A stretch of DNA of 64,000 bases from Spirochaetia bacterium (GTDB lineage: Bacteria > Spirochaetota > Spirochaetia > CADAEX01): positions 155,611 through 219,610 of the forward strand of contig CAXXHA010000011.1 of assembly GCA_963662265.2 (NCBI GenBank), given 5' to 3'. The position numbers were made by a program, and so were the translations under genes. A model generated the notes under the pieces. The model had not been told where the DNA came from. It was given only the letters and a program-made list of their open reading frames with translations, and did no database searches. This document shows positions 3,032 to 23,555 of the stretch, piece after piece (the stretch's first letter is position 1; every line of letters starts with the position of its first letter).

Positions 3032-3299
3032 TTTTCCTGTTATTATCAGTTTTTCTGCATGGATATTTTGTAACAAGGGAATCTCTAAAAAATATTTTTC
3101 TCGACAAACAGTCCAATTTTTACTAATTTATAATTAAGATATAATAAGAGTTTTTTTATTTGCAATATTGGTAAAAGAAGCAGTCTATGAAACAGAAGCT
3201 TTTAAATGCTTAGATATTCATTATCTTATGGATAGCGGAATATTGCCTGAATAAGAATACTCATCTGAAGATCTGCAGGGGAATTACAGGCGGTAGTAA

Positions 3300-4859: not shown

Positions 4860-7312
4860 CCAAAAGAGCACAGAAAATACTTGCATTGATGGCTCAGGAA
4901 GAGGCTAAACGGTTTCATGCAGATCAGTTGCTTCCTGAACACATTATCCTTGCTGTCCTCAAAGAGGGGGAGGGACAGGCTCTTAAGGTACTGCATAAAA
5001 ACGGAATAGATTCCGCAAAACTTCAGCTTGAAATTGAAAAAAATATTTTCAGGAATAAAGCTGGATTTATTCTCGGCGATGTCCCCCTTTCGAAACGTGG
5101 TAAAAAAATACTCGAAGATTCAGCTGAAGAAGCAAGAAAACTCAACCAGGAATATATTGGAACAGAGCACCTGATTCTTGCAGCTGCCAAAGAGCCGGGA
5201 AGCATTATATCAATGTTTTTCTACAACAACGGTGTAAGCATAGAAATGCTCAGAGAATCTATTGTTGAATTGACAGCTCTTGTAAGAAATGACAGCAAGA
5301 TTACAAAGCAGATTTCCGTAAATAAGAAAAATGTTCTGCCTGTTTCAAAAAACACTCCTCTTCTGAATGAATTTGCAAAAGATCTTACTGATATGGCAAG
5401 AAACAACAAGCTTGATCCGATTATAGGGAGGGAAAAAGAGATCTCCAGGGTTGTTCAGGTACTTGCTAGAAGAACAAAGAATAATCCTATTCTTCTAGGC
5501 GAACCGGGAGTTGGAAAAACAGCAATTGTTGAGGGACTTGCCACAATAATTTCAAACAGGAGCGCTCCTGAAGTGCTTCACGGAAAGAGGCTGATGGTTC
5601 TTGATCTTGCATCTGTCATAGCAGGAACCAAGTACAGGGGCGAATTCGAAGAAAGACTCAAGAGAATAATGAAGGAAATAAAGAATTCCCGTGATGTTAT
5701 TCTCTTCATCGATGAAATACACACAATAGTCGGAGCTGGCGGAGCTGAGGGCGCTATTGATGCATCAAACATGCTCAAACCTGCTCTCTCAAGAGGTGAA
5801 ATACAGTGCATTGGTGCTACAACTTTAGGTGAATACCGAAAAAATATAGAAAAAGATACAGCGCTGGAAAGACGGTTTCAGCCTATACTGATTGAGGAAC
5901 CGACCCAGGACGAGACAATCGATATACTTAAAGGGATAAAAAACTATTATGAGGAATTCCATAATGTTACTTATACAGAAGAAGCCCTTGTATTGAGCGT
6001 AAAGCTTGCATCCCGGTATATCACAGACAGGCTTCTTCCTGACAAGGCAATTGATATAATTGATGAGGCAGGATCCAGGAAGAGGATAATGTCCAGGGAA
6101 AAACCGGAAGAACTTGACAGTGTAATAAAACAGATAGAAGACCTTAACCATGAGAAAAAAGGGCATGTGAATAACCAGGATTATGAAAAAGCTGCTGCTG
6201 TCAGGGATTCCCTCAATAATCTGAAGGAAAAAAAGGATTCCCTTGAAAACAAATGGAAGCAGGAAATCAGGCTTGAACATAACCTGATTGAAGAGGGTGA
6301 TGTATACAGGGTTATTTCTGAAATAACAGGAATACCTCTTTCCAGGATTGCTGAAAATGAAACAGACAAGCTTCTCAAGATTGAAGATTACCTCCACGAA
6401 ACTGTTGTCGGCCAGGAAGAGGCAATATCATCTGTAGCATCCGCAATAAGAAGAGGACGGGCAGGTATATCTGCACCTGAAAGACCTCTCGGTTCTTTCA
6501 TTTTCCTCGGACCTACAGGTGTCGGAAAAACTCTTCTTGCAAAAACACTTGCTGAATTCCTTTTCGGAACCCAGGATGCTCTTATCAGGATTGATATGTC
6601 AGACTACATGGAAAAGCATAATTCATCCCGTCTGGTAGGTTCTCCTCCGGGTTACGTGGGGTATGAAGAGGGTGGTGTTCTCACAGAAAAGGTGAGAAGG
6701 AAACCCTACTGTGTAATTCTCTTTGATGAAATTGAAAAAGCACACCCTGATGTATTCAACCTGATGCTGCAGATCCTCGAAGAGGGTGAACTTCAGGACA
6801 ACCTCGGGCACAGGGTATCATTCAGGAATGCGGTTATTATAATGACTTCAAATGCAGGGGCTAGAGATATCTCAACAGGATTTTCTCTCGGCTTCAAGGC
6901 TCAGGAGCATATTACATATGCGGAAATAAAGTCTTCCGCTCTCAATGAGCTTAAAAGGATATTCAGGCCGGAATTCCTCAACAGGGTTGATGAAACTGTA
7001 GTTTTTGACAGCCTTTCAAGGAAGCAGATAGAAATGATTCTTGAAAAACAGCTTGATGAACTCAGGAGAAGGGTCAGCGATAAGAATCTTGTAATCGAAG
7101 TGACTGAATCTGCAAAAGAATATCTTATTCATGAAGGATGGGACACTAGATACGGCGCAAGACCGCTTCGAAGAGTTCTTCAGAAAGAGGTTGAAGACAG
7201 AATGTCCACTCTGATAATAAAGAGGGAAATAGTTGACAATGCTTCTGTCCTTATAGATTTTAACGGGGATGAACTTGTAATAATGAACAAGGCGGAAAAA
7301 GTAAATACATAA
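4844..7312 (+). CDS. clpC: ATP-dependent Clp protease ATP-binding subunit ClpC
   Basis: Clp N repeats, two AAA+ modules ([16 protein letters not shown]), UVR middle domain ([11 protein letters not shown]), GARPLRR. Confidence 0.96.
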
Positions 7313-7340
7313 AAAAGCCTCATAAAAACCGGATAAACAT

Positions 7341-7374
7341 AAAAGCAGCCTGTTCAAGCAGCAGGCTGCTTTTT
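7341..7374 (+). terminator. Intrinsic terminator after clpC
   Basis: aaaagcagcctg-N9-caggctgctttt inverted repeat with T run. Confidence 0.8.
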
Positions 7375-7422
7375 ATATATAATACTTGATAATTGATTAT
7401 TAACAATTTATAATCAATCAGA

Positions 7423-8352
7423 ATGAATCTTGAATTATTTGTCCTTGGATGCGGTGGTATGATGCCTCTCCCCGGAAGGCATCTTACATCTGTGCTGCTC
7501 AGGCGTGAAGGCGATCTTTTCATGTTTGACTGCGGCGAAGCAACACAGATATCACTGAAACGATTAAATCTCAGATGGAAGAAAATATCTGTAATACTCA
7601 TTTCCCATACACATGCCGACCATATAACAGGTCTGCCCGGTATACTCATGCTCTCCTCCCAGGTTGACCGTGATGAACCTCTTTACATAATTGGTCCTCC
7701 CAAAACAGCGGAATATGTTGAGGAGAGCAGAAGAATACTTGATATGTATATCAATTACGAAATAGTTATAAAAGAGATCACTGAGCCTGGAATTGTCTTT
7801 GAAACAGATGATTATTATATAAACAGCTTCCGGCTGAATCATACAAAAATATGTTACGGCTATAGCTTTAAAGAGAAGGAAAGACCGGGCGAGTTTTTCC
7901 CTGATAAGGCTCTGTCGCTTGGTGTTCCCAAGGGAAGAGACTGGTCAAGGCTGCAGAACGGTGCAAGTGTTGAGCTTGAAAACGGATCAGTTATAACGCC
8001 TGATATGGTAACCGGTGAAAAACGTTCAGGTAGAAAGGTGAGTTTCGTGACTGATACAGCCTATCTTCCCACTATTGCAGAAAATGTTACCGGTTCTGAT
8101 GTGTTTATATGTGAAGGGATGTTTACTGACGATCTTGAAGAAAGCGCTGCCTCAAAAAGGCACCTTACGTCCCGGCAGGCTGCAAAAATAGCAAATGAAG
8201 CAGGCGGAATAGGTAAGATGGGGCTTATCCATTACAGCCCCAGGTATACTGACAGGGACCTTAAAAGGCTGCTTGAAGAAGCATCTGAAGATTTTCCCGA
8301 TACATTTTTAACACGAGACAGGCAGGTCCTTAAAATAAAATACAGGGACTGA
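7423..8352 (+). CDS. rnz: Ribonuclease Z
   Basis: FDCGEATQ, SHTHADH metallo-beta-lactamase motif, exosite with GVPKG, TDT, HYSPRY. Confidence 0.95.
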   Translation: MNLELFVLGCGGMMPLPGRHLTSVLLRREGDLFMFDCGEATQISLKRLNLRWKKISVILISHTHADHITGLPGILMLSSQVDRDEPLYIIGPPKTAEYVEESRRILDMYINYEIVIKEITEPGIVFETDDYYINSFRLNHTKICYGYSFKEKERPGEFFPDKALSLGVPKGRDWSRLQNGASVELENGSVITPDMVTGEKRSGRKVSFVTDTAYLPTIAENVTGSDVFICEGMFTDDLEESAASKRHLTSRQAAKIANEAGGIGKMGLIHYSPRYTDRDLKRLLEEASEDFPDTFLTRDRQVLKIKYRD

Positions 8353-8380
8353 AATGTTTAACAAATGTTATAATTCAAAC

Positions 8381-8407
8381 GCATTTATTTATGATATAAA
8401 TAAATGC
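8381..8407. promoter_or_regulatory. Perfect 12-bp AT-rich inverted repeat between rnz and the ABC operon (operator or terminator-like)
   Basis: gcatttatttat-gat-ataaataaatgc. Confidence 0.35.
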
Positions 8408-8583
8408 ATAAAAATAACTTGATTGCTTGTAATAAATTAGTAATTTTATATGTGTAAAATATTCTTCCCGGAAAGAGAGGAAGTAATGATAAGGCATGTA
8501 TAAAATGAAAGTTGAAAATCAGCCTGAAAATTAAACTGGATGAAAGCTTCTAAAAATTAAAAATGAAGGAGGGAAACTTATAA

Positions 8584-9516
8584 ATGATTAATACTGATAA
8601 TGTTGTCAAAAAATACGGCAAAGTGAAAGCTGTAGACAAAGTTTCTATTAATATCGGTAAAGGCGAAATTGTCGGATTGCTTGGACCCAACGGCGCCGGA
8701 AAAACAACAATAATGAAGATCCTTACCGGTTACCATTTTCCGTCTAACGGCAGTGCATCTATTAATGGTTTTGATGTATATGATAATCCGCTTAAAGTTA
8801 AGGAATCAATCGGGTATCTTCCCGAAATGGCACCTCTGTATAATGACCTCAATGTATATGAATACCTCTCTTTTATAGCAGATGTCAGAAAAATACCTGC
8901 TGACAGAAAAAAGAAAGAGATAGAACGGGTTGTTGAAGAGTGCGGACTTCAGGCAGTTCTCTACAGACAGATTGAAAAACTGTCAAAGGGTTACAGACAG
9001 AGGGTTGGACTTGCCCAGGCAATTATCCATTCACCTGAAATCCTTATTCTTGATGAACCTACAACAGGTCTTGATCCGAACCAGATTATTGAAATCAGAA
9101 AGCTTATTAAGAGACTGGGAGAAAAGAAAACAGTAATTCTTTCAACTCATATTCTTCAGGAAGTGGAAGCTGTATGCAACAGGGTTCTTATACTGAATAA
9201 AGGTGCAATTGTTGCCAAAGGTACAGCAGATGAAATAAGGAAGGAACTGAAAGGGGATACCAGAATTTCACTTGAAATCAAGGCAGACAGCTACAACGGG
9301 GCAGTCCAGTCGCTTGAGGCTCTCTCTTCTGTTAAAGAGATAATAAAATCAGAAGAAACAAACAGTCTTCTGGAAATAAAGGTTGCTGTTGATTCAGATA
9401 CAGAAAACGCTGCAGAGGAAATATTTGACTGGGCTGTATCTAAGGGTTACAAAATTCTTTCAATGGTTCCTGAAAAAGTAAGCCTTGAAGATATTTTTAT
9501 TAAGCTGACAAATTAG
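8584..9516 (+). CDS. ABC-2 transporter ATP-binding protein (GldA-like)
   Basis: GPNGAGKTT, LSKGYRQRVGLAQA, DEPTTGLDPNQI, typical of GldA-type ATPases. Confidence 0.9.
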   Translation: MINTDNVVKKYGKVKAVDKVSINIGKGEIVGLLGPNGAGKTTIMKILTGYHFPSNGSASINGFDVYDNPLKVKESIGYLPEMAPLYNDLNVYEYLSFIADVRKIPADRKKKEIERVVEECGLQAVLYRQIEKLSKGYRQRVGLAQAIIHSPEILILDEPTTGLDPNQIIEIRKLIKRLGEKKTVILSTHILQEVEAVCNRVLILNKGAIVAKGTADEIRKELKGDTRISLEIKADSYNGAVQSLEALSSVKEIIKSEETNSLLEIKVAVDSDTENAAEEIFDWAVSKGYKILSMVPEKVSLEDIFIKLTN

Positions 9517-10257: not shown

Positions 10258-11769
10258 GTGAACAATAAAATAAAACAGATAATCCTGCTTGTGCTTGTTT
10301 CCGCACTGTTTGTGGTTATAGGACTGAACAGCACACGGTTTTTCAGGAGATTGGACTTAACTGAGAATAAATCATTTACAATTTCCGATGTATCAAAAGA
10401 TATAATCAGTACAATACCGGGTAATGTACAGATTACATATTTTCTTTCTGACAAGATCAGGAATATTACTCCTGTAGCTGCGGAAATTGAAGACCTTCTT
10501 TATGAATATTCGGCAAATTCCAGGGGACATGTAGCTGTAACAGTTCTTGATCCGCTGAAAACAAATACAGGGAAAAAAGCAGAGAATCTGGGGGTCCAGG
10601 CCCAGCAGATAGAAGTTTATGAGAAAAATGAACAGTCTTTTGCAATGGTTTATTCAGGTATAACAGTACAGTACCTGGACCAGGTGGAAACAATCCCGTT
10701 TATAATAAACCTTGAGACACTTGAATATGAAATAACATATAAAATCAGAAAACTTGTCGAAAACCTGAATACAAAAATCGGGATAGTAATCGGGGACAAC
10801 CGGAAAACAATGGAAAACAGTTTTTCATTCCTCGGAGAAAAGCTTTCAGCATCATTTGAAATTGAACAGATACAGCCGGGTATGGAAATTGCAGATGACT
10901 ACTCGGGAATCATAGTTCTCGGTGGAAAAGATCTTACAGAAAGCGATCTTCTTTATATTGATGAATACATAATGCACGGCGGCAAGGTGATGTTCTGTGT
11001 TGACGGTGTAGAAGTTGAAATGACAAGAAACCTTGAAGCAACAGTTCTCGAAGATGCCCCTGTATTTAAAATGATAGAAAAATACGGAGTTAAGATCAAC
11101 AGAGACCTTGTTATTGATAAATATGCAAGAAGAATACCTTTGAGAGGATCTTTCCCCATGCTTTATCCTCAGTGGGTTTCTGTTGCGGCTGAAAATGTTT
11201 CAAAAGAAAATCCTGTTACAAGCAGGTTTGCAGGCCTTGATCTTCTATGGACCAGCTCAATAGAAAAATCAGAAACAGACAGTAAAGTTGAAATAGAAAA
11301 ACTGCTTTCCTCTTCAGACCAGGCATACTCAATAAAGGAAAATATAACTGCCAATCCTTATGAGGTTAACGGACTTGCAGCGAATGAAAACCTTGAAAGA
11401 GGTGTTGTTGATTTCGGGTATGTTGTAAGCGGTAATTTCAAGAGCTACTTTACAGACAAGGAAAGCCCTGATAACAGGATGATTGTAATAGGGGATTCCG
11501 ACTTTGCATCAGATGTAATAAGATATTCAGACAGCCCGTTTAATATTGTTTTTGCTGAAAATGCGCTTGAATGGCTTGCTATTGATGATTCCCTTCTTTC
11601 TATCAAAACAAGGGACAAGAGAGATATGAGGCTTAATAAGATTCAGATTCCCGAACAGAAAGTAAAGGCAATTCTTTTTGTTTATCTTGTCAATATCGTA
11701 TTAATTCCTGCTGCAGTAATTGCATTTGGAGTAATAAGATTCATAAAACGAAAAAGAAAAGAATCTTAA
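10258..11769 (+). CDS. ABC transporter auxiliary component (GldG-like)
   Basis: RLDLTENKSFTIS, LEYEIT..I, IVIGDSDF; N- and C-terminal TMs. Confidence 0.85.
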   Translation: MNNKIKQIILLVLVSALFVVIGLNSTRFFRRLDLTENKSFTISDVSKDIISTIPGNVQITYFLSDKIRNITPVAAEIEDLLYEYSANSRGHVAVTVLDPLKTNTGKKAENLGVQAQQIEVYEKNEQSFAMVYSGITVQYLDQVETIPFIINLETLEYEITYKIRKLVENLNTKIGIVIGDNRKTMENSFSFLGEKLSASFEIEQIQPGMEIADDYSGIIVLGGKDLTESDLLYIDEYIMHGGKVMFCVDGVEVEMTRNLEATVLEDAPVFKMIEKYGVKINRDLVIDKYARRIPLRGSFPMLYPQWVSVAAENVSKENPVTSRFAGLDLLWTSSIEKSETDSKVEIEKLLSSSDQAYSIKENITANPYEVNGLAANENLERGVVDFGYVVSGNFKSYFTDKESPDNRMIVIGDSDFASDVIRYSDSPFNIVFAENALEWLAIDDSLLSIKTRDKRDMRLNKIQIPEQKVKAILFVYLVNIVLIPAAVIAFGVIRFIKRKRKES

Positions 11770-11790: not shown

Positions 11791-12729
11791 ATGACTTTTA
11801 AAAACAAAATAATATCACTATCATCTGCTATTGCAGTGCTGACAATAATTTATATACTTGGTGCAGTTTTTTCTCCCGAAAGGATGCAGGAAAAAAAATC
11901 ACAGGAAAAGCTTTTTGATATCAAGCAGCTTGAAACTGTCGTCAAAATAAAAGTATCAACAAATGACGGATTTGCTGAAATTGTGAAAGAGGGCGGGGAA
12001 TGGATGGTTTATTCCGGAAGCAGCAAATATCCGGCCTCAGAACATAAAATTGATAATTTTCTTGATTCCATATTCAATCTGAATAAATTCCAGACAGTGG
12101 GAACTGATAAAAAACACTGGGAAAAGTTTGATCTTACAGAAGATAAAGCAAGAAGTGTTACGCTTGATAATGACAGCGGAGAAATGTTTACCCTCTACCT
12201 TGGTAAAAGCGGACCGGCTGAGCGCGGTGAATATATCAGAAGCACAAAATCCGATGAATGCTATCTTACAGACGGATCATTCAAAAGATATTTTTACAAA
12301 GATATCAATTACTGGAGTCATCTGAGAATTCTTGATGAAGAAATTGACAGTGCAAGCATTATTTCAATGGATATAACTGCTGATGTTGATGTAAAGGGTG
12401 AAAACTTTAAAGGCGCTCTCAAACTTGTAAAAGAGGATGCAGAGGGTAATTATGAGTGGTACAATCCTGAAAATAATGAAAAATTCCAGAGAAGCAAGGC
12501 TGACACTATTGCCAACAATATATCAGCACTTGTTGCAGACAGCTATACTGAGGAAAAACTCTCAAGAAAAGATGTTGTAATCAAAATAGAAACTGAAAAA
12601 TTCGGAAAGCAGATTATCGATATACAGAAAAAAAGTGAAGACCGCTTCCTGATAAATATAAGAGGTGATAAATATACTTTTATAATAAATCAGTATAAGA
12701 TACACAGAATAATCAGCCGTATTAACTAA
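11791..12729 (+). CDS. DUF4340-like membrane-anchored protein of the Gld-type ABC operon
   Basis: N-terminal TM, beta-rich periplasmic repeats (LYLGKSGP...EYIR), usual fourth gene of such operons. Confidence 0.7.
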   Translation: MTFKNKIISLSSAIAVLTIIYILGAVFSPERMQEKKSQEKLFDIKQLETVVKIKVSTNDGFAEIVKEGGEWMVYSGSSKYPASEHKIDNFLDSIFNLNKFQTVGTDKKHWEKFDLTEDKARSVTLDNDSGEMFTLYLGKSGPAERGEYIRSTKSDECYLTDGSFKRYFYKDINYWSHLRILDEEIDSASIISMDITADVDVKGENFKGALKLVKEDAEGNYEWYNPENNEKFQRSKADTIANNISALVADSYTEEKLSRKDVVIKIETEKFGKQIIDIQKKSEDRFLINIRGDKYTFIINQYKIHRIISRIN

Positions 12730-12964: not shown

Positions 12965-13139
12965 TGATTGAAGAAAGCAATTAAAGCTTTTATATTATGG
13001 CTGACACCGGGGATGATTTATCTGTGATATATGCATAAAAATGCATGAAACAATGTCTGCTGATGAATGTAAACAGTTTATCATCATAAATAAATCTAAC
13101 CCAGTATCTGCCATAAATTTATCACAATGGAGAAAAATT

Positions 13140-13964
13140 ATGGGTAAGTTAAATTACGGTCTCAACAGAATCATGGCACCGGGTCATGACCTTGAAACAT
13201 TTTTCAGAATTACATCAGAAATGGGGTTGAAGTACCTGGAAGTACGAAATGATCTCCCGGGTAATAAAATTTATGACGGCTACTCTGCTGAAAAAGTGAA
13301 TGAATTATCTGAAAAATACGGTGTAACAATTATTACTGTAAATGCAGTACAGCAGTTCAACAGAAAAGGTAATCTTGATGAAAAACTCGATGAAGTTGAA
13401 AAGATGGTTGAAGATGCTGCAAAAGTGGGATGCAGGGGAATAATACTGTGCCCTTTGAATGATCCTGAAGATAAAAGGTCAGATGATGAATCACTTGATG
13501 ATACAGTAAAAGCACTTAATAAATATGGAAGAGTTTTCAGAGACAATAATGTTACAGGACTTGTAGAACCTCTCGGATTTTCCATATGTTCAATCAGGAC
13601 AAAGAAAAAAGCTGTAAACGCTATTAATGCATCAGATTTTTCTGAAAGCTATAAAATAGTACACGACACATTCCATCATTATCTTGCAGGGGAAGGTGAA
13701 ATATTTCCTGCGGAGACAGGTCTTGTTCATATTTCAGGAGTTGAAGATAACCTTCCCAAAGAAGATATTACTGATGACAACAGAATCCTTATCAGAGAAA
13801 AAGATATTATGGGTAATCTCAAGCAGATTAAAGATATGTTTGACGGAGGGTATAAAGGTGTATTTTCTTTTGAACCTTTTGGACCGGCAGTACAGAAACT
13901 CAGCATAGCTGAACTTGAAGAAGGACTTAAGGAAAGCATAAGCCTTATAGAAGCAGCTGTATAA
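13140..13964 (+). CDS. Xylose-isomerase-like TIM barrel sugar isomerase/epimerase (2-keto-myo-inositol isomerase IolI-like)
   Basis: EVRND, GLVEPLGF, HDTFHHYL, LVHISG, SFEPF metal-binding motifs; GGAG RBS before ATG 13140 (ORF track start 13041 probably too long). Confidence 0.8.
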   Translation: MGKLNYGLNRIMAPGHDLETFFRITSEMGLKYLEVRNDLPGNKIYDGYSAEKVNELSEKYGVTIITVNAVQQFNRKGNLDEKLDEVEKMVEDAAKVGCRGIILCPLNDPEDKRSDDESLDDTVKALNKYGRVFRDNNVTGLVEPLGFSICSIRTKKKAVNAINASDFSESYKIVHDTFHHYLAGEGEIFPAETGLVHISGVEDNLPKEDITDDNRILIREKDIMGNLKQIKDMFDGGYKGVFSFEPFGPAVQKLSIAELEEGLKESISLIEAAV

Positions 13965-16823: not shown

Positions 16824-17057
16824 AAGTTTATTATTACTTATAATTGAAAATTTGTGAACACTTTTTTTTATTCTGCATAAAAATGACAACTTATGAAAAT
16901 ATAAAATATGTAGTATAATATAATATTTTTTGATAGATCATGGTTGAATTATTTTTATTTTATCCCTGCTGCCGGATGCAGTTTAAGGGATTTTTATTAT
17001 GTTATATAATATTCTTCTGTGAGTATTTTAACAGACAGATAAATAGTTGTTGTATAT

Positions 17058-18410
17058 ATGTTTAAATTAGACGGTATATCCGGTATCAAAAAAGTAAAAT
17101 GGAAACACCTTAGGCCTGGAGTAATCTTCCTTTCAGGCGCTTCAGTGAATGGTTCTCCAATACCTGAACTGCTTGATTTCCCGGTAATCACTGAACAGCT
17201 TTTATATGAACTCTTTAACAAATACAGATTTTTATCTGACAGGGAAGTTGTAATTGCAGAACCTGTATATAATTACAGCCCTTTCAGCCTGTCAAAAATC
17301 CTTAAAGAGGGAAATGAAAAAAGGGAACTGCTCAATCAGCTAAGGGCAAACCATGAAAAAGAAAAGAAAATGCTTCTTTTCGAGGCAGGTTTTGATGAAT
17401 CTCCCGGCATCCCCCTGATAAATACAGATGTAGTTGACCGTGATTTCCTGATAAAAGATACTTATAATTCCTTTTCTTATCTTTACGGACTGAACAACAG
17501 CCTTGATCTTATCCCCTCTGTATTTCATGATCTTGATCTTCAGATGTCTGTTGGGGACCTTTTAACAGGAAAGATAAACAGTAAATTCAATATACCGGAT
17601 GACAAAGAGGTACTTATTCATATTGCTGTTGATTTTTCAAAAAGCATGGATTCAATGGGAAAGCTTGATCTGGTGATCTCTTCAGTTGAATACTTTTGTA
17701 ATACAATTCCTCTGGTTTTTAAAAATACAAAAATTAAGCTGTATATTTTTTCTGACAGCTGTATACCTGCTGAACTTCCTTTCCGGTCGGGGGCAATCGA
17801 AAGAGGAGATACATCTTACAGCAGCTTTATGAAAAAAGTGCTGCATTTCCGTGATAAGGAAGTTCACAACAAGGTAATTGTTTTTACTGACGGAATCCCC
17901 ACAGACAGAACAGAAGCACTGAAAATCGGTGAACTTATTAAGAAAAATAGTGTAGATTATACCCAGATCATCTTTGATATTAAAGATGAACAGAGACATG
18001 AAATAGAGTTTCCTTTCGGTAAAGAGAGGATTGATACTGCTGATAATGTTGTAACAGATGTAACTGATAAAATGATACAGGTGGAACTCGATGATGAGGC
18101 GCTTGACAGGAAGATGAAGAGGATATTCAGCGAGTTTACAGAAATCGCCGAAGTCTGCGGAGGAAACCAGATAATCCTTAAAATAAACAAATTTATAAAT
18201 CTGGTTTCAGTCGAATGTTATGACAGGTATATGGGACTCCTTACCCTTGCAAGCAGGGAGGAGGCTGAGGCTCTGGAAAAGGAAAGCTCTGAAGAGGCTA
18301 AAAGAAGAGTAAAGAACTGGAACAACCCGGGGACGAAAAAACAGGTAGAGAGCAGCAGCTTTACCGGGACAGAAAAACAGGTTAAAAAGTGGAACTTTCC
18401 CAGGGTGTAA
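17058..18410 (+). CDS. vWA-domain protein with intact MIDAS
   Basis: VDFSKSM (DxSxS), GDTSY, VIVFTDG; no signal peptide. Confidence 0.75.
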   Translation: MFKLDGISGIKKVKWKHLRPGVIFLSGASVNGSPIPELLDFPVITEQLLYELFNKYRFLSDREVVIAEPVYNYSPFSLSKILKEGNEKRELLNQLRANHEKEKKMLLFEAGFDESPGIPLINTDVVDRDFLIKDTYNSFSYLYGLNNSLDLIPSVFHDLDLQMSVGDLLTGKINSKFNIPDDKEVLIHIAVDFSKSMDSMGKLDLVISSVEYFCNTIPLVFKNTKIKLYIFSDSCIPAELPFRSGAIERGDTSYSSFMKKVLHFRDKEVHNKVIVFTDGIPTDRTEALKIGELIKKNSVDYTQIIFDIKDEQRHEIEFPFGKERIDTADNVVTDVTDKMIQVELDDEALDRKMKRIFSEFTEIAEVCGGNQIILKINKFINLVSVECYDRYMGLLTLASREEAEALEKESSEEAKRRVKNWNNPGTKKQVESSSFTGTEKQVKKWNFPRV

Positions 18411-18558
18411 AGGCAGAATTTAACAAAAAAGCAGCAGGGCTGTGGTATATCAGCTCCGATTTTTGAATAAAACTGCTGAATAAATCATCTATTTGACTAG
18501 TTGCACAATCTCATTTAACATATAAACAATTAAAATACCTTATAAAAAGGAATAAAAA

Positions 18559-19536
18559 ATGAGAATTAAAAATATATTTATGCTTATCCTGATTCTGATA
18601 TCAGTATCCTCCTGGGCACTGTCTTCAGAAGATGCTTCAAAACAGGCAGTATCTGCATTTGAAAAGTCAGTTTCTTCAAGATCTGTTGCAGGTGTCGGAA
18701 ACATAGTATACGGTGAAAAAAAGATAGGAAGCAGCTATTCCCTTTATCTTCAGGAACTTATCTCGGGAGAAATCCAGAAATCTGAAAGCTTTGAGCTTTC
18801 CGACAGGGGAAACCTTGATGATATCATGAAAGAGGTAAAGCTGGCACTGTCAGGTATGACAGATTCCGACACATCAATTGATATCGGGATGCTTAAAGGG
18901 CTAGAATACATAGTTACAGGCAAATTCTTTGATAACGGAACTAATATCAAGCTCTTCCTTGACCTTGTAAAATCAGATACAGGTGTAAGTGTTTCAAAAA
19001 TGCAGTATGTAATCAGCAAATCTACACTTCCGACCGGAGTAGAGCTCCTCCCTGAAAACTACAACGATGCAATGTTTGTGCTTGAAGAACTTTCAGACCT
19101 TACAAAAAGCAGCGGAAAAGGTCTTGATGTAAGGGCCTGGAATGTACGGGGGGACGGAGGAATATACAGGGACGGAGAGGAGCTTCAGGTAAACTTTTTT
19201 GCAAACCGGGACTGTTTTATCAAGGTCTATCACATTGATGTAAATAAAAAGGCAAGCCTGATATTTCCCAATCCGTATTACTCTGACAATCATATAAAAG
19301 GAAAGCAGATCGTTAAAATCCCTGACAGCAGATATCCTTTTAAATTCAAGCTTACATCTCCCTACGGATCTGAGTTTATCAAGGTTATAGCATCCACCAC
19401 ACAGTTCAAGGATATAGAGGATTCTTTTAAAGAACTCGGTACTGCATCAGGCGAGCTTCTTACTAGGGGATTGGTTGTAGAAGCAAAAGAAACACTTACA
19501 GATGAGGCGCTTTTCAGCTACACGATATTAAAGTAA
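18559..19536 (+). CDS. Exported CsgG/FlgO-like plus DUF4384 domain protein
   Basis: Signal peptide (SVSSWA); DRGNLDDIMKEVKLALSG..IGMLKGLEYIVTG (CsgG/TolB_N-like); YRDGE..NRDCFIKVYHID..LIFPN..PYGSEFIKVIAS (DUF4384). Confidence 0.8.
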   Translation: MRIKNIFMLILILISVSSWALSSEDASKQAVSAFEKSVSSRSVAGVGNIVYGEKKIGSSYSLYLQELISGEIQKSESFELSDRGNLDDIMKEVKLALSGMTDSDTSIDIGMLKGLEYIVTGKFFDNGTNIKLFLDLVKSDTGVSVSKMQYVISKSTLPTGVELLPENYNDAMFVLEELSDLTKSSGKGLDVRAWNVRGDGGIYRDGEELQVNFFANRDCFIKVYHIDVNKKASLIFPNPYYSDNHIKGKQIVKIPDSRYPFKFKLTSPYGSEFIKVIASTTQFKDIEDSFKELGTASGELLTRGLVVEAKETLTDEALFSYTILK

Positions 19537-19652
19537 TCAGGGAAGCGGTAAATAATTCTGTTGTTATAATAATTTTGCCTGAATAAGGCTGATAACAATA
19601 TTACTTTTGGAAAATGAAAACTGAATATTAAAAAGTGAATCAGGAGTGGTTT

Positions 19653-21473
19653 ATGAGAAAAACACTTATTCTTGTCTTTATGATTTTTTTATTTCTGACA
19701 AATATTATCTATGCACAGAACAAAACAGCCCTCGTCATAGGAAACGGAAGCTATAAGCATTTCTCCCCGTTAAGCAGTCCTAAAAATGAAGCTTCCGATA
19801 TGAAGAATGCATTAACACGGCTCGGATTCGATGTAATTCTCCTTCTTGACGGGACACAGGACAGCATTCTGGATGCTGTTTCAGACTTTGAATATAAACT
19901 TAAAAACAGGGGCGGGATTGCATTCTTTCATTACGGTGGTCACGGAGTACAGGTTGAAGGAAGCAACTACATAATACCTGTAGATGCAGATATTCCTGAT
20001 GAGAGAAGGGTAAAGTCGCGTGCTGTTGATATTGATGAGATAATAAGCGCAATGGATGCATCTGGAAGTAAAACCAATATCGTAATACTTGATGCATGCC
20101 GTGATAATCCCCTTCCCGGAGCTTCCCGTTCAGGCACAAGAGGGCTTGCTGTAACAGGACACCAGCCTCCCGACTCAATTATTGTTTACTCTGCTGATGC
20201 CGGAACAACTGCGGAAGACGGCCTTTTTACACCGACACTATTAAAATACCTTGAAAATCCCGGAATGGAATTTACAGATATTCTCAGAAAGGTACGGAGA
20301 GATGTAAGAAAGAAATCCGGAGGAAGGCAGAGGACAGGGGACTATAACCAGCTTGAAAGCGAAATCTACCTTGCAGGGAGAACAGGAAGCAGCAGCTCTT
20401 CCAGTAATTCTTATGCCTCAGCCTCTTCAAAAAAGCCCAGTCTCAGCGTGGAGTCTGCAAAATACGGCTCAGTAAAGCTGATGGTAAAAGAGGCGGGAAC
20501 ATTATATCTTGACGGTGTAAATATGGGAAAAATAGCTGCAAACAGGTCTGCAACATTAAATAATATTGAGACGGGAAGTCATGCTATAGAGATAAGATAT
20601 GCAGGAAATACAGAAAGGAAAACAGTGACTGTCTATGAAAACAGGACAGCAAGCCTTTCATTTTCTTATGAAAAGCCACGTTCTGTGACTCCAACATCCA
20701 GCAATAATACCGGCAAAAACATGGTCTTTGTTGAAGGCGGCACCTTCCAGATGGGCAGTAATTCCGGCGCCAGCCATGAAAAGCCTGTGCACAGCGTGAC
20801 AGTATCGAGTTTTTACATAGGAAAGTATGAGGTAACACAAAGTGAGTATAGCACTGTTACGGGAAAAGACCCTTCTTTTTTAAAGGGAGACAGCCTTCCT
20901 GTAGAAATGGTTAGCTTTTATGATGCAGTTGAGTACTGTAATGAGTTAAGCAGAAGGGAAGGTCTTTCTACTGCCTATAATATTAACAAAAGCAGACAGG
21001 ACTCAAATAACAAGGCCGAATATGATAGACTTAAATGGACAATAACAGTAAACTGGAATGCTGACGGATACAGGCTTCCGACAGAGGCTGAATGGGAATA
21101 TGCAGCCCGAGGTGGAAAAATGAGCAGAGGATATAAATACTCAGGATCAAATAATTCAGGAGACGTTGCTTGGAATCGTGATAATTCAGGAGGGAAAAAA
21201 CATCCGGTGGGCCAGAAATCAGCAAACGAACTTGGGATATATGATATGAGCGGGAATATCTGTGAGATGTGCTGGGATTGGTATGGAAAAACATATTACT
21301 CCTCTTCAAGCCAGAGAGATCCACGGGGTCCTGCTTCGGGGGAGAACCGCGTGGTACGGGGAGGCGGAACGGGCTATGATATTTTTTCACGGTCTGCCAG
21401 TCGCGGCTACTGCAGTCCAAGCGGTTTCGGCGACGGTATAGGCTTCCGCCTTGTTCGATCCGCAGTTCAGTAG
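19653..21473 (+). CDS. Exported caspase (peptidase C14)-PEGA-FGE-sulfatase/C-type-lectin protein; probable DGR target
   Basis: Signal peptide (NIIYA); ALVIGN, YGGHG and LDACR intact His/Cys dyad; Ser-rich linker; PEGA-like LYLDG..GSHAIEIR; FGE motifs RLPTEAEWEYAARGG, NELGIYDMSGN, RVVRGG..GFRLVR. Confidence 0.9.
   Translation: MRKTLILVFMIFLFLTNIIYAQNKTALVIGNGSYKHFSPLSSPKNEASDMKNALTRLGFDVILLLDGTQDSILDAVSDFEYKLKNRGGIAFFHYGGHGVQVEGSNYIIPVDADIPDERRVKSRAVDIDEIISAMDASGSKTNIVILDACRDNPLPGASRSGTRGLAVTGHQPPDSIIVYSADAGTTAEDGLFTPTLLKYLENPGMEFTDILRKVRRDVRKKSGGRQRTGDYNQLESEIYLAGRTGSSSSSSNSYASASSKKPSLSVESAKYGSVKLMVKEAGTLYLDGVNMGKIAANRSATLNNIETGSHAIEIRYAGNTERKTVTVYENRTASLSFSYEKPRSVTPTSSNNTGKNMVFVEGGTFQMGSNSGASHEKPVHSVTVSSFYIGKYEVTQSEYSTVTGKDPSFLKGDSLPVEMVSFYDAVEYCNELSRREGLSTAYNINKSRQDSNNKAEYDRLKWTITVNWNADGYRLPTEAEWEYAARGGKMSRGYKYSGSNNSGDVAWNRDNSGGKKHPVGQKSANELGIYDMSGNICEMCWDWYGKTYYSSSSQRDPRGPASGENRVVRGGGTGYDIFSRSASRGYCSPSGFGDGIGFRLVRSAVQ
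21321..21473 (+). other. Putative DGR variable region (VR) at the 3' end of the caspase-CLec gene
   Basis: About 62% GC by hand count versus about 46% for the same stretch of the paralog; all 11 non-scaffold codons between tct-gcc and ata-ggc-ttc-cgc end in C/T. Confidence 0.6.
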
Positions 21474-21544
21474 CAGCCGGGAGGAGGCCGGCTGTTCAGG
21501 GGAAGGAGCCGGAGGCAGCCCCCTGAAGCGGAGCTTAAGGGGGC
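21474..21544 (+). promoter_or_regulatory. GC-rich hairpin/cruciform cluster with GGA triloops right after the stop codon (DGR target-recognition-like)
   Basis: cagccgg-N7-ccggctg (21474-21494); gcc-GGA-ggc (21508-21516); gccccctgaagc-GGA-gcttaagggggc (21518-21544, 11 of 12 bp paired). Confidence 0.55.
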
Positions 21545-21682
21545 ATACTGTAGGCGGAGAAACCGGTAAAAAAATAATTATTATAAGCTGAATAAATTAT
21601 TCAGAATTAACATAAAACTAATAAAAAGTTTCTGCAAATAATTTTAAAAAATATATATAATATCTTTAAAAATATCCGGGGA

Positions 21683-22114
21683 ATGTTTATGAGAAAAGTA
21701 ATTATTTTTATCAGTTTATTATTGATATTAACAGCTGCTATCCTTCCTGCACAGGATAAATTTGCCCTGGTAATAGGAAACAGCAGCTACAAAGGTCTGT
21801 CTCCCCTTAAAAATCCTGTAAATGATGCAACTGATATTGCATCAGCTTTAAGGAACATGGGATATAATGTTGAACTTCTCAAGAACAGCAGTCTGAGCGC
21901 CATGGAAACAGGGGTCCTTAATCTTAAAAACAGGTTATCTGTCAGCAAGCACAGTATCGGATTTGTATACTATGCAGGGCACGGAATTCAGTCAAACGGT
22001 GAGAATTTTCTTATTCCTTCAGATGCTGATATAAGGGATGAAGCTTTTTTAAAAACAAAGAGTCTATCAACACAGGTAATGATGGATCTTCTCGGGGTGC
22101 AAGAAATAAACTGA
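21683..22114 (+). CDS. Second exported caspase-PEGA-FGE protein, N-terminal part (frameshift at G4 22094-22097)
   Basis: Signal peptide (AILPA), FALVIGN, LKNPVNDA, YYAGHG; adding one G gives LLGGARNKLNVVVLDACR, joining the next ORF. Confidence 0.85.
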   Translation: MFMRKVIIFISLLLILTAAILPAQDKFALVIGNSSYKGLSPLKNPVNDATDIASALRNMGYNVELLKNSSLSAMETGVLNLKNRLSVSKHSIGFVYYAGHGIQSNGENFLIPSDADIRDEAFLKTKSLSTQVMMDLLGVQEIN

Positions 22115-22122
22115 ATGTAGTT

Positions 22123-23514
22123 GTGCTTGATGCGTGCCGTGATAATCCTTTTTCCTGGAACAGGAGCGGGAGCAGGGGGCTTTCTGTAGTCGGTTCACAG
22201 CCACCCGGAAGTATTATTGTATATGCTACAAGTGCAGGAAGTGTTGCCAGGGATGGTTCAGGCCGGAACGGCATATTCACAAAAGAGCTTCTTAAAAATA
22301 TGAAAACTCCCGGTATTGATGTAAGCGAGGTATTCCGGCTGACAGGAGCCGGAGTAAGCCGGGTAACAAACGGTAAGCAGGTGCCTGCTGTATATAATCA
22401 GTATTTTGAAAAGATATCACTTTCTGCAGGAACTGTGTCAGGTTCAAATTTAAATAATTCATCTACCGGACCTAAAAATAATCCCGGATTTAAAGTTGAT
22501 TCACTGAAATACGGTTCTGTAAAAATCAGTTCTATGGAAGCCGGAAGCGTATTTCTTGACGGAAGCAAAATCGGAGATCTTACTGCAAACCGGTCTGCAA
22601 CACTCACAGATATCCTGACCGGTTCACATAGCATTGAAATGAGGTATACAGACTATACTGAAAGAAAAAGTATTACTATATATGAAAACCGAACATCAAG
22701 TCTGTCATTCACATGGAGAAAATCAGCTTCAGGCAATACTGCTGCCCTGAATAAATCAGCAGCTGACAAACCACAGCTGGTTTATGTAAGCGGCGGAACA
22801 TTTCAGATGGGAAGTAAATATAAATCATTTACAGGTCCTGTCCACAGTGTTACCCTGGGAAGTTTTTATATCAGCAAGTATGAAATAACTCAGGAACAGT
22901 ATGAATCTGTTATGGGAAAGAATCCCTCAAATTTCAGGGGGAAGAATTTCCCGGTTGATAAGGTGAGCTGGTATGATGCTGTTGAATACTGCAATGCGCT
23001 GAGCAGAAGCGAAGGATTTAATCCTGCATATAACATAAAAAAAAGCAGCTTAATGACAAAAGACGGAAAACCTGATAAATCAAAATGGACAGTAACATGC
23101 GACTGGAATGCAGATGGATACAGGCTGCCGACAGAAGCAGAATGGGAATATGCTGCCATTGGCGGGAATAAAAGCAGGGGATACAGTTATTCAGGTTCAA
23201 ATAACCCTTCTGAAGTTTCCTGGAATAAGACTACAGGCGGGAAAGTAAGTGCTGTAGGCATGAAAAAACCCAATGAACTGGGTATACATGATATGAGCGG
23301 GAACCACTGGGAATGGGTCTGGGACTGGTACGGATCTTATTCAGCAGCAAATCAGACAAACCCCAAAGGACCTGAAACAGGTACAAAGAAAGTGGAGAGA
23401 GGCGGTGCATATTATGCCGATCCTGAACTATGCAATGTGAAGTACAGGCTTATGTGTCTGCCTACAGTGGAATACAGCAGTTTAACAATAAGGGTAGTAA
23501 GGCCTGCAAGATAA
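22123..23514 (+). CDS. Second caspase-PEGA-FGE-sulfatase/CLec protein, C-terminal part
   Basis: LDACRDNP, SRGL, PEGA-like domain, RLPTEAEWEYAA, NELGIHDMSGNHWEW; colinear with 19653-21473. Confidence 0.88.
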   Translation: MLDACRDNPFSWNRSGSRGLSVVGSQPPGSIIVYATSAGSVARDGSGRNGIFTKELLKNMKTPGIDVSEVFRLTGAGVSRVTNGKQVPAVYNQYFEKISLSAGTVSGSNLNNSSTGPKNNPGFKVDSLKYGSVKISSMEAGSVFLDGSKIGDLTANRSATLTDILTGSHSIEMRYTDYTERKSITIYENRTSSLSFTWRKSASGNTAALNKSAADKPQLVYVSGGTFQMGSKYKSFTGPVHSVTLGSFYISKYEITQEQYESVMGKNPSNFRGKNFPVDKVSWYDAVEYCNALSRSEGFNPAYNIKKSSLMTKDGKPDKSKWTVTCDWNADGYRLPTEAEWEYAAIGGNKSRGYSYSGSNNPSEVSWNKTTGGKVSAVGMKKPNELGIHDMSGNHWEWVWDWYGSYSAANQTNPKGPETGTKKVERGGAYYADPELCNVKYRLMCLPTVEYSSLTIRVVRPAR

Positions 23515-23555
23515 AGATCTTCGCAAAATAGCGGAAAATAAAATATAATAGATAT

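What the first reader, a model, noticed from the sequence alone, without database searches (positions are those of the whole stretch)
21321..21473. Orphan DGR-type variable region at the tip of an exported caspase-lectin protein
Seen: the gene ends tct gcc AGT cgc GGC TAC TGC AGT cca AGC GGT TTC GGC GAC GGT ata ggc ttc cgc ctt gtt. All 11 codons in capitals end in C or T. They occupy the positions where FGE-type DGR templates typically read SANRNNNNPxNxNNNIGFR with AAY codons. Four more NNY codons (ggc tat gat att) follow RGG, although that part is one codon shorter than the usual pattern and lacks the usual Trp. The patch is about 62% GC by hand count, against about 46% for the same stretch of the paralog. 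Established: FGE-subtype C-type-lectin domains are classic DGR targets (Treponema denticola TvpA, Legionella LdtA), and adenine-specific mutagenesis of AAY codons leaves NNY codons. Inference: this is a remote target diversified in trans, since no template repeat, Avd or RT is in the window. That would make it a hypervariable ligand sensor fused to an exported caspase.
Basis: partly seen in the sequence, partly recalled or inferred. Interest (0 to 1): 0.88.

Follow-up and report, generated by a model that had tools for sequence, protein, structure and literature searches.

The report
Orphan DGR-type tail, caspase-lectin gene
The last ~45 codons of an exported caspase-lectin gene look like a variable region once rewritten by a diversity-generating retroelement, as in a related genome that still has the retroelement next to the gene, but no template or reverse transcriptase was found in this assembly.

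Summary
All 11 named codons are NNY. The span 21321-21473 is 60.8% GC, against 38.5% for the genome and 44.4% for the paralog's tail. The densest NNY run of the gene (18 of 20 codons) starts at 21393.

The gene (19653-21473) encodes a signal peptide, a Peptidase_C14 caspase domain and a TvpA-like FGE/C-type-lectin domain. A 53%-identical homolog in genome G193 is a true DGR target, with an HRDC accessory gene, RT and TR directly upstream and only adenine-specific TR/VR mismatches. Against that foreign TR our tail differs at 14 of 18 adenine positions but at 14 of 51 others (p=0.0003). The broken paralog shows no such bias. The three closest homologs (78-85% identical) have almost unrelated tails (4-6 of 26 residues shared).

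The trans-diversification claim is not shown. The 3.77-Mb MAG (90.6% complete) holds no TR and no RT. No DGR-type RT was found in either same-genus genome. Assembled contigs of the one sample holding the stretch show no variants. The NNY bias is also common to this whole tail family (mean 0.68; ours 0.76).

The gene sits in a ~6.6-kb island missing from a same-genus genome. Verdict: a DGR-derived orphan variable region, either frozen or served by an unbinned cassette, and a new member of a known kind.

The parts
19653..21473 (+). Caspase-lectin gene. 606 aa from the ATG at 19653; the ORF lister starts at GTG 19635 and gives 612 aa.
   Evidence: ORF. The database copy P0001 is 606 aa. MRKTL begins at residue 7 of the 612-aa frame.
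19653..19715 (+). Probable Sec signal peptide (MRKTLILVFMIFLFLTNIIYA/Q)
   Evidence: Read by eye from the translation. No signal-peptide predictor was run. Homologs have the same hydrophobic N-terminus.
19722..20351 (+). Peptidase_C14 (caspase/orthocaspase) domain with the motifs HYGGHG and DACRDN
   Evidence: Pfam PF00656, E=2.1e-33, residues 30-239. Motifs at residues 98 and 152. PADLOC 'caspase', E=6.6e-12.
20715..21458 (+). FGE-sulfatase type C-type-lectin domain, TvpA-like
   Evidence: Pfam PF03781, E=8.2e-55, profile positions 3-255 of 255. Best PDB match is 2y3c TvpA, E=1.4e-36.
21339..21473 (+). VR-like tail (GENRVVRGG...GFRLVRSAVQ*). It is the equivalent of the span covered by the TR in the G193 DGR.
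   Evidence: Codon alignment to the G193 TR; NNY, GC and adenine depletion; codon usage; hypervariable among the closest homologs.
21290..21560 (.). GC-rich island (59-64% GC in 100-nt windows) covering the tail and about 90 nt beyond the stop codon
   Evidence: Composition profile. It is the only region of the window at or above 58% GC in 153-nt windows.
21474..21494 (+). Hairpin directly after the stop codon (7-bp stem CAGCCGG/CCGGCTG, 7-nt loop)
   Evidence: Sequence and DNA fold.
21459..21558 (+). Larger structured element that contains the hairpin. It is not followed by a T-run.
   Evidence: DNA fold of 21455-21580: -27.5 kcal/mol, z=-4.19, 0 of 200 shuffles as stable. Unique in the genome. 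No Rfam family.
21683..23514 (+). Tandem paralog (caspase + FGE) split into two ORFs in different frames (21683-22114 and 22123-23514). Its tail lacks the VR signature.
   Evidence: ORFs, Pfam, frames, tail GC 0.444 and GC3 0.362, no adenine-position bias against the G193 TR.
16885..23535 (.). About 6.65-kb island: an unnamed 450-aa ORF, a DUF4384/CsgG-like exported protein, the caspase-lectin gene and its broken paralog. It is absent between the same two flanking genes in same-genus genome G001.
   Evidence: The flanks map 90 nt apart in G001 (C1:1359341-1360510 and 1360601-1361452). Neighbour domains.

Best explanation
The tail (about 21339-21473) is a DGR variable region by descent. It was written by adenine-mutagenic retrohoming from an AAY-rich template in the lineage's past. 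It sits at the ligand-binding C-terminus of a TvpA-like lectin domain fused to an exported caspase. The gene came into this genome in a ~6.6-kb island without a DGR cassette. In this organism the tail is most likely frozen and now evolves like any other sequence.

Shown: the domain architecture, the codon and composition anomaly, the DGR status of a homolog, the lack of TR and RT in the assembly, and the island.

Inferred: that the tail was DGR-written, that it is no longer being rewritten, and that the protein is a ligand-directed extracellular protease.
For: DGR descent:
- Over 69 ungapped nt against the heterologous G193 TR, our tail differs at 14 of 18 TR adenines but at 14 of 51 other positions (Fisher p=2.7e-4). 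Eleven of those 14 other differences are at third codon positions. The paralog shows 13 of 18 against 33 of 51 (p=0.77).
- G193's own VR differs from its TR at 9 of 18 adenines and 0 of 51 other positions. Its RT and an HRDC accessory gene lie directly upstream of the caspase-FGE target.
- Arg codons in the tail are 6 of 6 CGN, against 9 of 31 in the body (p=0.002). GC3 is 0.543 against 0.369.
- The GC island is extreme for this genome, and a stable hairpin follows the stop codon.
- The closest homologs are 81-88% identical before RGG (462-501 of 571-572 residues) but share only 4-6 of 26 tail residues. The tails hold 0-2 residues of K/E/Q/M/W, against 17-18% in the bodies.

Frozen or orphan state:
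- No TR by blastn (only the self match is significant).
- No TR by a gapless scan that tolerates any mismatch where the genome base is A. The best non-self place has 34 non-A mismatches in 153.
- No RVT_1 match at E<=1. tblastn with the G193 RT gives a best E of 2.2.
- The island is flanked by conserved genes, with no room for a cassette.
- The tail lacks the scaffold Trp and one codon relative to its closest homologs, which are changes that adenine mutagenesis cannot make.
- The adjacent paralog is broken.
- Single unbroken contigs with 0 differences cover the tail in 3 runs of one sample.
- The 90%-identity cluster of the protein has 1 member. No near-identical C-terminal fragments with other tails are on record; the best is 70% identical.
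Against: - The assembly is a MAG of 41 contigs at 90.6% completeness. Most of the 120 best homologs of the G193 RT lie on contigs of a few kb (judged by eye, not counted). Such cassettes are easily lost from bins.
- Contigs cannot show rare variants.
- 11 of 11 NNY codons, an intact frame and an intact hairpin show little decay.
- The tails of the closest homologs have diverged far more than the rest of the gene. Diversification therefore went on until recently in this gene lineage, or the tails were exchanged by recombination.
- The NNY bias alone does not discriminate. It is typical of 86 tails of this family, and confirmed VRs score 0.62-0.77.
Confidence: 0.45

Rival explanations
1. Active remote target. 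A DGR cassette (RT, TR, accessory gene) exists in this organism or on a mobile element or phage in it, but was not assembled or binned. It rewrites this tail in trans, using the GC-rich 3' end and the hairpin as the homing signal.
For: - All sequence features expected of a competent target are present: an intact frame, 11 of 11 NNY codons, the GC island and a hairpin right after the stop codon.
- The genome is 90.6% complete in 41 contigs.
- DGR RT homologs mostly sit on very short contigs.
- DGRs occur in the same family and class. G010 and G022 have clean TR/VR pairs (18 of 18 and 15 of 17 mismatches at adenines).
- Remote targets and trans activity are described in passages of PMC7517822 and PMC10907252.
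- In metagenome locus L095 one TR matches VRs about 8-10 kb away.
- The tails of the closest homologs are almost unrelated.
Against: - No TR or RT in 3.77 Mb.
- No related TR or VR DNA in the 400 other genomes sampled from the class, in phage or plasmid records, or as an exact 23-mer in viral or metagenome contigs.
- No variant contigs or contig breaks at the tail in 3 runs.
- A codon deletion and the loss of the scaffold Trp relative to the closest homologs.
Confidence: 0.3
2. Never DGR-written in this lineage. The tail composition is simply what TvpA-like FGE tails look like (rich in Gly, Ser, Tyr, Asp, Arg). The GC island, and the divergence from the closest homologs, come from recombination or cassette exchange of lectin domains between paralogs or strains.
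For: - The NNY excess and K/E/Q/M/W depletion are family-wide (86 tails: 0.68 against 0.52 and 0.10 against 0.20).
- Only 3 of 76 metagenome loci had a TR/VR pair within the DNA held.
- The protein is mosaic. In 25-column windows the caspase half is 96-100% identical to P0002 and P0003, while the lectin domain outside the tail is only 76-78% identical (160-165 of 211). DGR action cannot explain this.
Against: - The adenine-position bias against a heterologous TR (p=2.7e-4) is absent in the paralog.
- Scaffold codons are conserved at the DNA level across hosts of 42-60% GC.
- Synonymous codon choice is foreign to the gene body.
- The island boundary lies close to where the TR begins in G193.
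- Many of the 76 loci are short contigs, so 3 of 76 is a lower bound.
Confidence: 0.2
3. Assembly artefact: a chimeric join of a GC-rich fragment onto the end of the gene.
For: There is an abrupt composition change in a metagenome-assembled genome.
Against: - The reading frame continues through conserved FGE motifs (RGG...GFRLVR) to a family-typical end (AVQ*, as in P0002-P0004).
- Independent Logan contigs of three runs (28 kb, 18 kb, 18 kb) cover 20800-21700 with 0 differences. All three are from one sample, which may be the source of the window.
Confidence: 0.03

Closest known systems
Treponema denticola TvpA (DGR variable protein, PDB 2Y3C)
   Same: It is the best solved relative of the lectin domain (E=1.4e-36, query residues 17-252 aligned to 40-290 of the chain). 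It has an FGE-type C-type-lectin fold with the variable stretch between RGG and GFRL at the C-terminus. Both come from spirochaetes.
   Different: The 294-residue TvpA chain shows no caspase domain; our protein adds an N-terminal Peptidase_C14 domain and a beta-rich linker. From recall, not tested here: TvpA has its TR and RT nearby. Our gene has neither in the assembly.
Caspase-FGE DGR locus of genome G193
   Same: It has the same architecture (signal-peptide-like N-terminus, caspase, FGE) and is 53% identical over residues 12-609. The tail scaffold is the same: RSA-x-R-xxxx-P...GFRLVR.
   Different: G193 has an HRDC accessory gene, an RT (RVT_1, E=2.5e-19) and a TR immediately upstream, and several targets. 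Its TR is not the template of our tail: 14 of 51 non-adenine positions differ.
Cyanobacterial DGR variable proteins with orthocaspase-like N-terminal domains, and their 'remote VPs' and 'VP homologs' (Vallota-Eastman et al. 2020, PMC7517822; passages read)
   Same: A caspase-type peptidase is fused to a C-terminal CLec domain that carries the VR. That paper also describes paralogs without a local cassette, and a class of homologs with no detectable TR match.
   Different: Those are cyanobacterial and are said to be mostly cytosolic. Ours is a spirochaete gene with an apparent export signal. By that paper's criterion (at least 50% TR identity within the same genome) ours would be a 'VP homolog', not a remote VP, because no TR exists in the assembly.
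Trans-diversified and incomplete DGR loci of Thiohalocapsa PB-PSB1 (Dore et al. 2024, PMC10907252; passages read)
   Same: Target genes lacking a local RT or TR are nevertheless diversified. The targets are linked to caspase-like or trypsin-like effectors and to FGE-type CLec sensors.
   Different: There the diversification was measured in reads and TRs exist elsewhere in the genome. Here neither could be shown.
Prokaryotic metacaspase-FGE-sulfatase architecture (Asplund-Samuelsson et al. 2012, PMC3501461; passages read)
   Same: Peptidase_C14 + FGE-sulfatase was found in 33 of 671 prokaryotic metacaspases.
   Different: In the passages I read, that paper interprets the FGE part as a sulfatase-modifying enzyme and does not mention DGRs.

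Membership tests
DGR variable region (target of a diversity-generating retroelement) | A cognate template repeat in the same genome that differs from the VR almost only at TR adenines | tested here: not met
   Only the self match is significant by blastn. In the A-tolerant gapless scan the best non-self place has 34 non-A mismatches in 153. A word-7 blast of the VR core and its 3' flank gave nothing longer than 43 nt. Caveat: the MAG is 90.6% complete.
DGR variable region (target of a diversity-generating retroelement) | A DGR-type reverse transcriptase in the genome | tested here: not met
   RVT_1: 0 matches at E<=1 in the own genome, while the control genomes ring. tblastn with the G193 DGR RT: best E 2.2.
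DGR variable region (target of a diversity-generating retroelement) | VR at the 3' end of a gene, in a CLec/FGE-type ligand-binding domain | tested here: met
   The FGE-sulfatase domain runs to residue 608 of 612. The best PDB relative is TvpA.
DGR variable region (target of a diversity-generating retroelement) | Substitutions concentrated at positions that are adenines (AAY codons) in the template, giving NNY codons | tested here: met
   11 of 11 NNY codons. Against the heterologous G193 TR, 14 of 18 adenine positions differ versus 14 of 51 others, p=2.7e-4. This is indirect, because the TR is not its own.
DGR variable region (target of a diversity-generating retroelement) | GC-rich IMH at the VR 3' end and an inverted repeat or hairpin just downstream | tested here: inconclusive
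   A hairpin lies at 21474-21494 within a structured element (z=-4.19), and the 3' end is GC-rich. An IMH can be defined only against a TR, and the 7-nt loop differs from the 4-nt loops that I recall for characterised DGRs.
DGR variable region (target of a diversity-generating retroelement) | Population-level variation confined to the VR | tested here: inconclusive
   Contigs of 3 runs (one sample) show no variants, but contigs drop rare variants. No near-identical fragments with other tails are on record. The homologs at 78-85% identity have unrelated tails.
TvpA-like FGE-subtype C-type-lectin domain | Full-length match to PF03781, and closer to TvpA than to FGE enzymes | tested here: met
   PF03781, profile positions 3-255 of 255, E=8.2e-55. 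2y3c E=1.4e-36 against 5.7e-18 for the best FGE enzyme.
Catalytic formylglycine-generating enzyme | A pair of Cys residues in the C-terminal loop (their role is recalled, not from a call) | tested here: not met
   In the alignment to FGE 6muj the enzyme reads ...GGSYLCHDSYCNRYR... where ours reads ...GGGT.GYDIF...SR, so both Cys positions are absent.
Peptidase C14 (caspase/orthocaspase) | A domain match above the Pfam cut-off, and the His and Cys motifs of the catalytic dyad | tested here: met
   PF00656, 116.4 bits against a cut-off of 21.4. HYGGHG and DACRDN are present and invariant in the alignment. That these are the catalytic residues is from general knowledge.

The most novel reading that the evidence does not exclude
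The tail is a live remote target. A DGR cassette that escaped the bin rewrites, in trans, the ligand-binding tip of a secreted caspase. This would give a spirochaete an extracellular protease whose substrate or docking specificity is reprogrammed by hypermutation. The ~6.6-kb island (DUF4384 protein plus two caspase-lectins) would then be a portable target module that plugs into whatever DGR the recipient carries.
Probability: 0.3. Interest if true: 0.6.

Novelty: new member of a known kind. Interest (0 to 1): 0.4.

Why it matters
DGR surveys work from the RT outward, so they miss targets that lie far from the cassette or have lost it. One such survey says this of remote targets itself (passage of PMC8144416).

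This case shows that a target-type tail can be recognised from the target side, in two ways. One is composition and codon usage foreign to the gene. The other is an adenine-position bias measured against the TR of a distant homolog.

It also gives a concrete spirochaete family, exported caspase plus TvpA-like lectin, with one complete DGR locus (G193) and one orphan. These could be used to study how targets move between genomes and decay. The biology itself, caspase-type effectors fused to DGR-diversified lectin sensors, is already described in cyanobacteria and in multicellular bacteria.

Tried and rejected
- **TR in the own genome.** blastn, an A-tolerant gapless scan on both strands for three spans, and a word-7 blast of the VR core and 3' flank found nothing.
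- **RT in the own genome.** RVT_1 and tblastn with the G193 RT and its HRDC accessory protein found nothing.
- **The short FGE hit at C5:26046-26324.** It looked like a possible TR. It is a small secreted FGE protein gene.
- **GC-rich islands across the genome (74 found).** I read seven with skewed A/T content and none is TR-like.
- **TRs of the DGRs in relatives G010 and G022.** They are unrelated to our tail.
- **Close homologs in other genomes.** I searched 20 genomes of the family and 401 of the class (own genome included in both counts). The best hit was 67% identical (G215). The 78-85% homologs P0002-P0004 are on ENA contigs whose DNA I could not obtain.
- **RT on the contigs of P0002-P0004.** I matched contig lengths among the 120 best homologs of the G193 RT. 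None had 1,106,676 or 32,200 bases. This is not conclusive, because only 120 of 7047 hits are listed.
- **Exact 23-mer of the VR 3' end.** 0 matches in metagenome contigs and in viral contigs.
- **VR plus flank against other collections.** The 400 other genomes of the class, phage records and plasmid records gave no match.
- **Metagenome relatives via alignment A1.** The peptide patterns used were generic and gave mostly distant FGE proteins. 3 of 76 loci had a TR/VR pair.
- **Reads.** Only Logan contigs of one sample were available, and they showed no variants. A rise in depth of about 1.4-1.6 at 21420-21450 (0.8-0.9 at 21451-21481) in two runs could not be inspected.
- **Short C-terminal fragments with alternative tails.** None was near-identical.
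- **A shared loop motif downstream of the stop codon** (seen in L030 and L033). My pattern missed our own copy. The motif occurred after only 2 of 96 tails, so I dropped it as chance.
- **Rfam.** Three matches at E 0.44-0.98, all far below their gathering scores.
- **PADLOC and NCBIfam for the island genes.** Nothing above the cut-offs except a generic 'caspase' model.
- In one search the script compared against a decayed copy in L048 instead of the TR. The TR comparisons of that call are void and were redone. Its Fisher test on Arg codons and its binomial figures stand.
- **Earlier notes of this scan.** The one note returned for this genome concerns an unrelated exopolysaccharide locus.
Full report
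**What is there**

The finding lies at the 3' end of an ORF at 19635-21473 on the + strand (612 aa). The likely start is the ATG at 19653, which gives the 606-aa protein held in the protein collection as P0001.

Pfam finds Peptidase_C14 at residues 30-239 (E=2.1e-33). It finds FGE-sulfatase at residues 361-608, matching the whole profile (3-255 of 255, E=8.2e-55). The N-terminus reads like a Sec signal peptide; I judged this by eye and ran no predictor. The caspase motifs HYGGHG and DACRDN are present.

The best solved relative of the lectin domain is the Treponema denticola DGR variable protein TvpA (2y3c, E=1.4e-36). The best true FGE enzyme scores 5.7e-18. In that alignment our protein lacks both Cys positions of the enzyme's LCHDSYC loop. 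So this is a TvpA-like lectin domain fused to an exported caspase, not a sulfatase-maturing enzyme.

**The observation**

| Measure | Value |
|---|---|
| GC, 21321-21473 | 0.608 |
| GC, rest of the gene | 0.424 |
| GC, same stretch of the paralog | 0.444 |
| GC, genome | 0.385 |
| 153-nt windows of the genome reaching 0.608 | 0.032% |
| NNY, whole gene | 0.526 |
| Densest NNY run | 18 of 20 codons, starting at 21393 |

Every such GC-rich window within the 64-kb window lies at this locus. The GC island runs from about 21290 to 21560, that is about 90 nt past the stop codon.

Synonymous codon choice in the tail is foreign to the gene. Arg is 6 of 6 CGN in the tail and 9 of 31 in the body (p=0.002). 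GC3 is 0.543 against 0.369.

Directly after the stop codon lies a 7-bp hairpin (21474-21494). It sits inside an element that folds far better than shuffled sequence (z=-4.19, 0 of 200 shuffles as stable). The element is unique in the genome and matches no Rfam family.

One caution applies to the codon count. In 86 FGE-type tails from relatives and metagenomes the NNY fraction averages 0.68, against 0.52 in the gene bodies, and ours is 0.76. VRs with a confirmed TR score 0.62-0.77. The codon bias is real but typical of the family. Taken alone it does not single out this gene.

**Is it a DGR-type variable region?**

I first checked that my repeat scan finds real DGRs. In relatives G010 and G022 it recovers TR/VR pairs with 18 of 18 and 15 of 17 mismatches at template adenines.

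Searching 401 genomes of the class for the protein gave seven with a strong match, counting the own genome. In one of them, G193, an RVT_1 hit lies immediately upstream of the homolog. That locus (L048) contains:

- an HRDC-domain accessory gene;
- a 336-aa RT (RVT_1, E=2.5e-19);
- a TR reading ...RSANRNNNSPGNSNNNLGFRLVR;
- a caspase-FGE gene 53% identical to ours.

Over a 69-nt stretch the G193 VR differs from its TR at 9 of 18 adenines and at 0 of 51 other positions. So the caspase-FGE architecture includes a bona fide DGR target.

I then aligned our tail to this foreign TR, without gaps, over the same 69 nt. It differs at 14 of 18 adenine positions but at only 14 of 51 others (p=2.7e-4). 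Eleven of those 14 are third codon positions. The neighbouring paralog's tail shows no such bias (13 of 18 against 33 of 51, p=0.77).

Other homologs keep the same scaffold codons at the DNA level in hosts of 42-60% GC.

The three closest proteins on record are P0002, P0003 and P0004, at 85, 84 and 78% identity. Before RGG they are 81-88% identical to ours (462-501 of 571-572 residues). Between RGG and GFR they share only 4-6 of 26 residues. K/E/Q/M/W make up 0-2 residues per tail, against 17-18% of the bodies.

Together these results make descent from a DGR-written VR the best reading. I put that at roughly 0.75, summing the frozen and the active variants.

**Is it being diversified in trans?**

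The evidence from this genome:

- The genome (3.77 Mb, 41 contigs, 90.6% complete) has no second copy of the tail by blastn.
- A gapless scan that forgives any mismatch where the genome base is A finds nothing. The best non-self place has 34 other mismatches in 153.
- A word-7 blast of the tail and its flank finds nothing.
- There is no RVT_1 match at E<=1. tblastn with the G193 RT finds nothing better than E=2.2.

The evidence from relatives and other collections:

- Of the two same-genus genomes, G001 has no RT. G002 has a 690-aa RT with a long C-terminal extension and no TR/VR pair nearby, which does not look DGR-type.
- Neither same-genus genome has the caspase-lectin gene.
- The two genes flanking window 16885-23535 lie 90 nt apart in G001. 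So the caspase-lectin pair and two upstream genes form a ~6.65-kb island with no cassette in it.
- No DNA relative of the tail plus flank was found in the 400 other genomes sampled from the class, in phage records or in plasmid records. An exact 23-mer was not found in viral or metagenome contigs.

The evidence from the sample and the protein collection:

- Three sequencing runs of one sample, probably the source of the window, hold the stretch. Their contigs cover it in one piece with no differences and no alternative paths.
- The protein's 90% cluster has a single member.
- No near-identical C-terminal fragments with other tails are on record.

The tail also lacks the scaffold Trp and is one codon shorter than in its closest homologs. 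Adenine mutagenesis cannot produce either change. The tandem paralog is split by a frameshift.

**What keeps the active reading alive**

The genome is a MAG. Most of the best homologs of the G193 RT sit on contigs of only a few kb (judged by eye), which are the kind that bins lose. Contigs cannot reveal minority variants. The target features (frame, NNY codons, hairpin) are undecayed. In metagenome locus L095 one TR matches VRs 8-10 kb away. Remote and trans-acting cases are in print (passages of PMC7517822 and PMC10907252).

I therefore split the DGR-descent reading into frozen orphan (0.45) and live remote target (0.30).

**A complication**

Against P0002 and P0003 the caspase half is 96-100% identical in 25-column windows. 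The lectin domain outside the tail is only 76-78% identical (160-165 of 211). A DGR cannot cause that. Lectin domains seem to be exchanged or to diverge under selection as whole units, so part of the tail divergence may have come with such exchanges. This supports the rival reading that recombination alone explains the locus (0.20). That rival does not explain the adenine-position bias or the foreign synonymous codons.

**Comparison with what is known**

- Caspase-type peptidases fused to DGR-diversified CLec domains, with remote targets and TR-less 'VP homologs', are described for cyanobacteria (PMC7517822, passages).
- Caspase-like effectors linked to FGE-type DGR sensors, and diversification in trans, are described for Thiohalocapsa (PMC10907252, passages).
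- The Peptidase_C14 + FGE-sulfatase architecture was counted in 33 of 671 prokaryotic metacaspases in 2012, without a DGR reading in the passages I saw (PMC3501461).
- TvpA is the structural prototype.

A search for papers holding a DGR term together with metacaspase or Peptidase_C14 terms listed 12 of 45 papers, and none of the 12 held the DGR term. I did not search specifically for spirochaete caspase-FGE targets. I did not open the supplementary tables of these papers, which may list such architectures.

**Verdict**

The DGR-type nature of the tail is supported. Diversification in trans is unproven and somewhat less likely than a frozen orphan. This is a new member of a known kind, of moderate interest. 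Its main value is as a worked example of recognising a DGR target from the target side, and as a pair (the G193 complete locus and this orphan) for studying how targets move and decay.

Noticed in passing
window 21683-23514: The tandem paralog of the caspase-lectin gene is split into two ORFs in different frames (21683-22114 and 22123-23514). The shift lies around 22075-22120. It may be a pseudogene or an assembly error. Its tail has none of the VR-type signature.
   Followed up: partly
window 16885-23535: A ~6.65-kb island lies between two genes that are 90 nt apart in same-genus genome G001. In G002 the same flanks are about 16 kb apart, so this is a variable locus. The island also holds an unnamed 450-aa ORF (17058-18410) and an exported DUF4384/CsgG-like protein (18559-19536).
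   Followed up: partly
L048 (G193:C2:380000-399000): This is a complete DGR: HRDC gene 7641-8123, RT 8120-9130, TR about 9115-9250. It has at least two FGE-type targets (ending at 3185 and 11262). It also has decayed, frameshifted FGE fragments at about 6249-7123, one with a TR-like remnant at 6509-6588. Two repeat pairs of 151 and 169 nt, each 99% identical, flank the elements (7178-7328 = 11229-11379; 7361-7529 = 13076-13244).
   Followed up: partly
window 21420-21481: In runs X2 and X3, but not X1, summed contig depth rises by about 1.4-1.6 at 21420-21450 and 0.8-0.9 at 21451-21481. This means a low-depth contig at least 80% alike over the 3' end of the tail. It was not among the rows shown and could be a relative's gene end.
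   Followed up: no
P0001 versus P0002 and P0003 (alignment A1): Identity is mosaic. In 25-column windows the caspase half is 96-100% identical, while the lectin domain outside the tail is 76-78% identical. The short linker before the lectin domain is also very divergent (28-47% in one 25-column window).
   Followed up: partly
L095 (metagenome contig, 21089 nt held): One TR (2658-2785) matches three VRs, at 1033-1155, 10590-10713 and 12541-12668. The targets therefore lie up to about 10 kb from the template, and one of them is in a protein of caspase-FGE architecture.
   Followed up: no
L035 3115-3192 (G276:C15): A caspase-FGE homolog (58% identical) has the opposite tail composition. It is A-rich (0.37) and rich in Asn and Lys (GWNNLSTDGRINKRKSESIAGKSFNL), with NNY of only 0.50.
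   Followed up: no
G000:C23:22529-22847 (own genome, outside the window): A GC-rich array of about 46-nt direct repeats turned up while I was listing GC islands.
   Followed up: no
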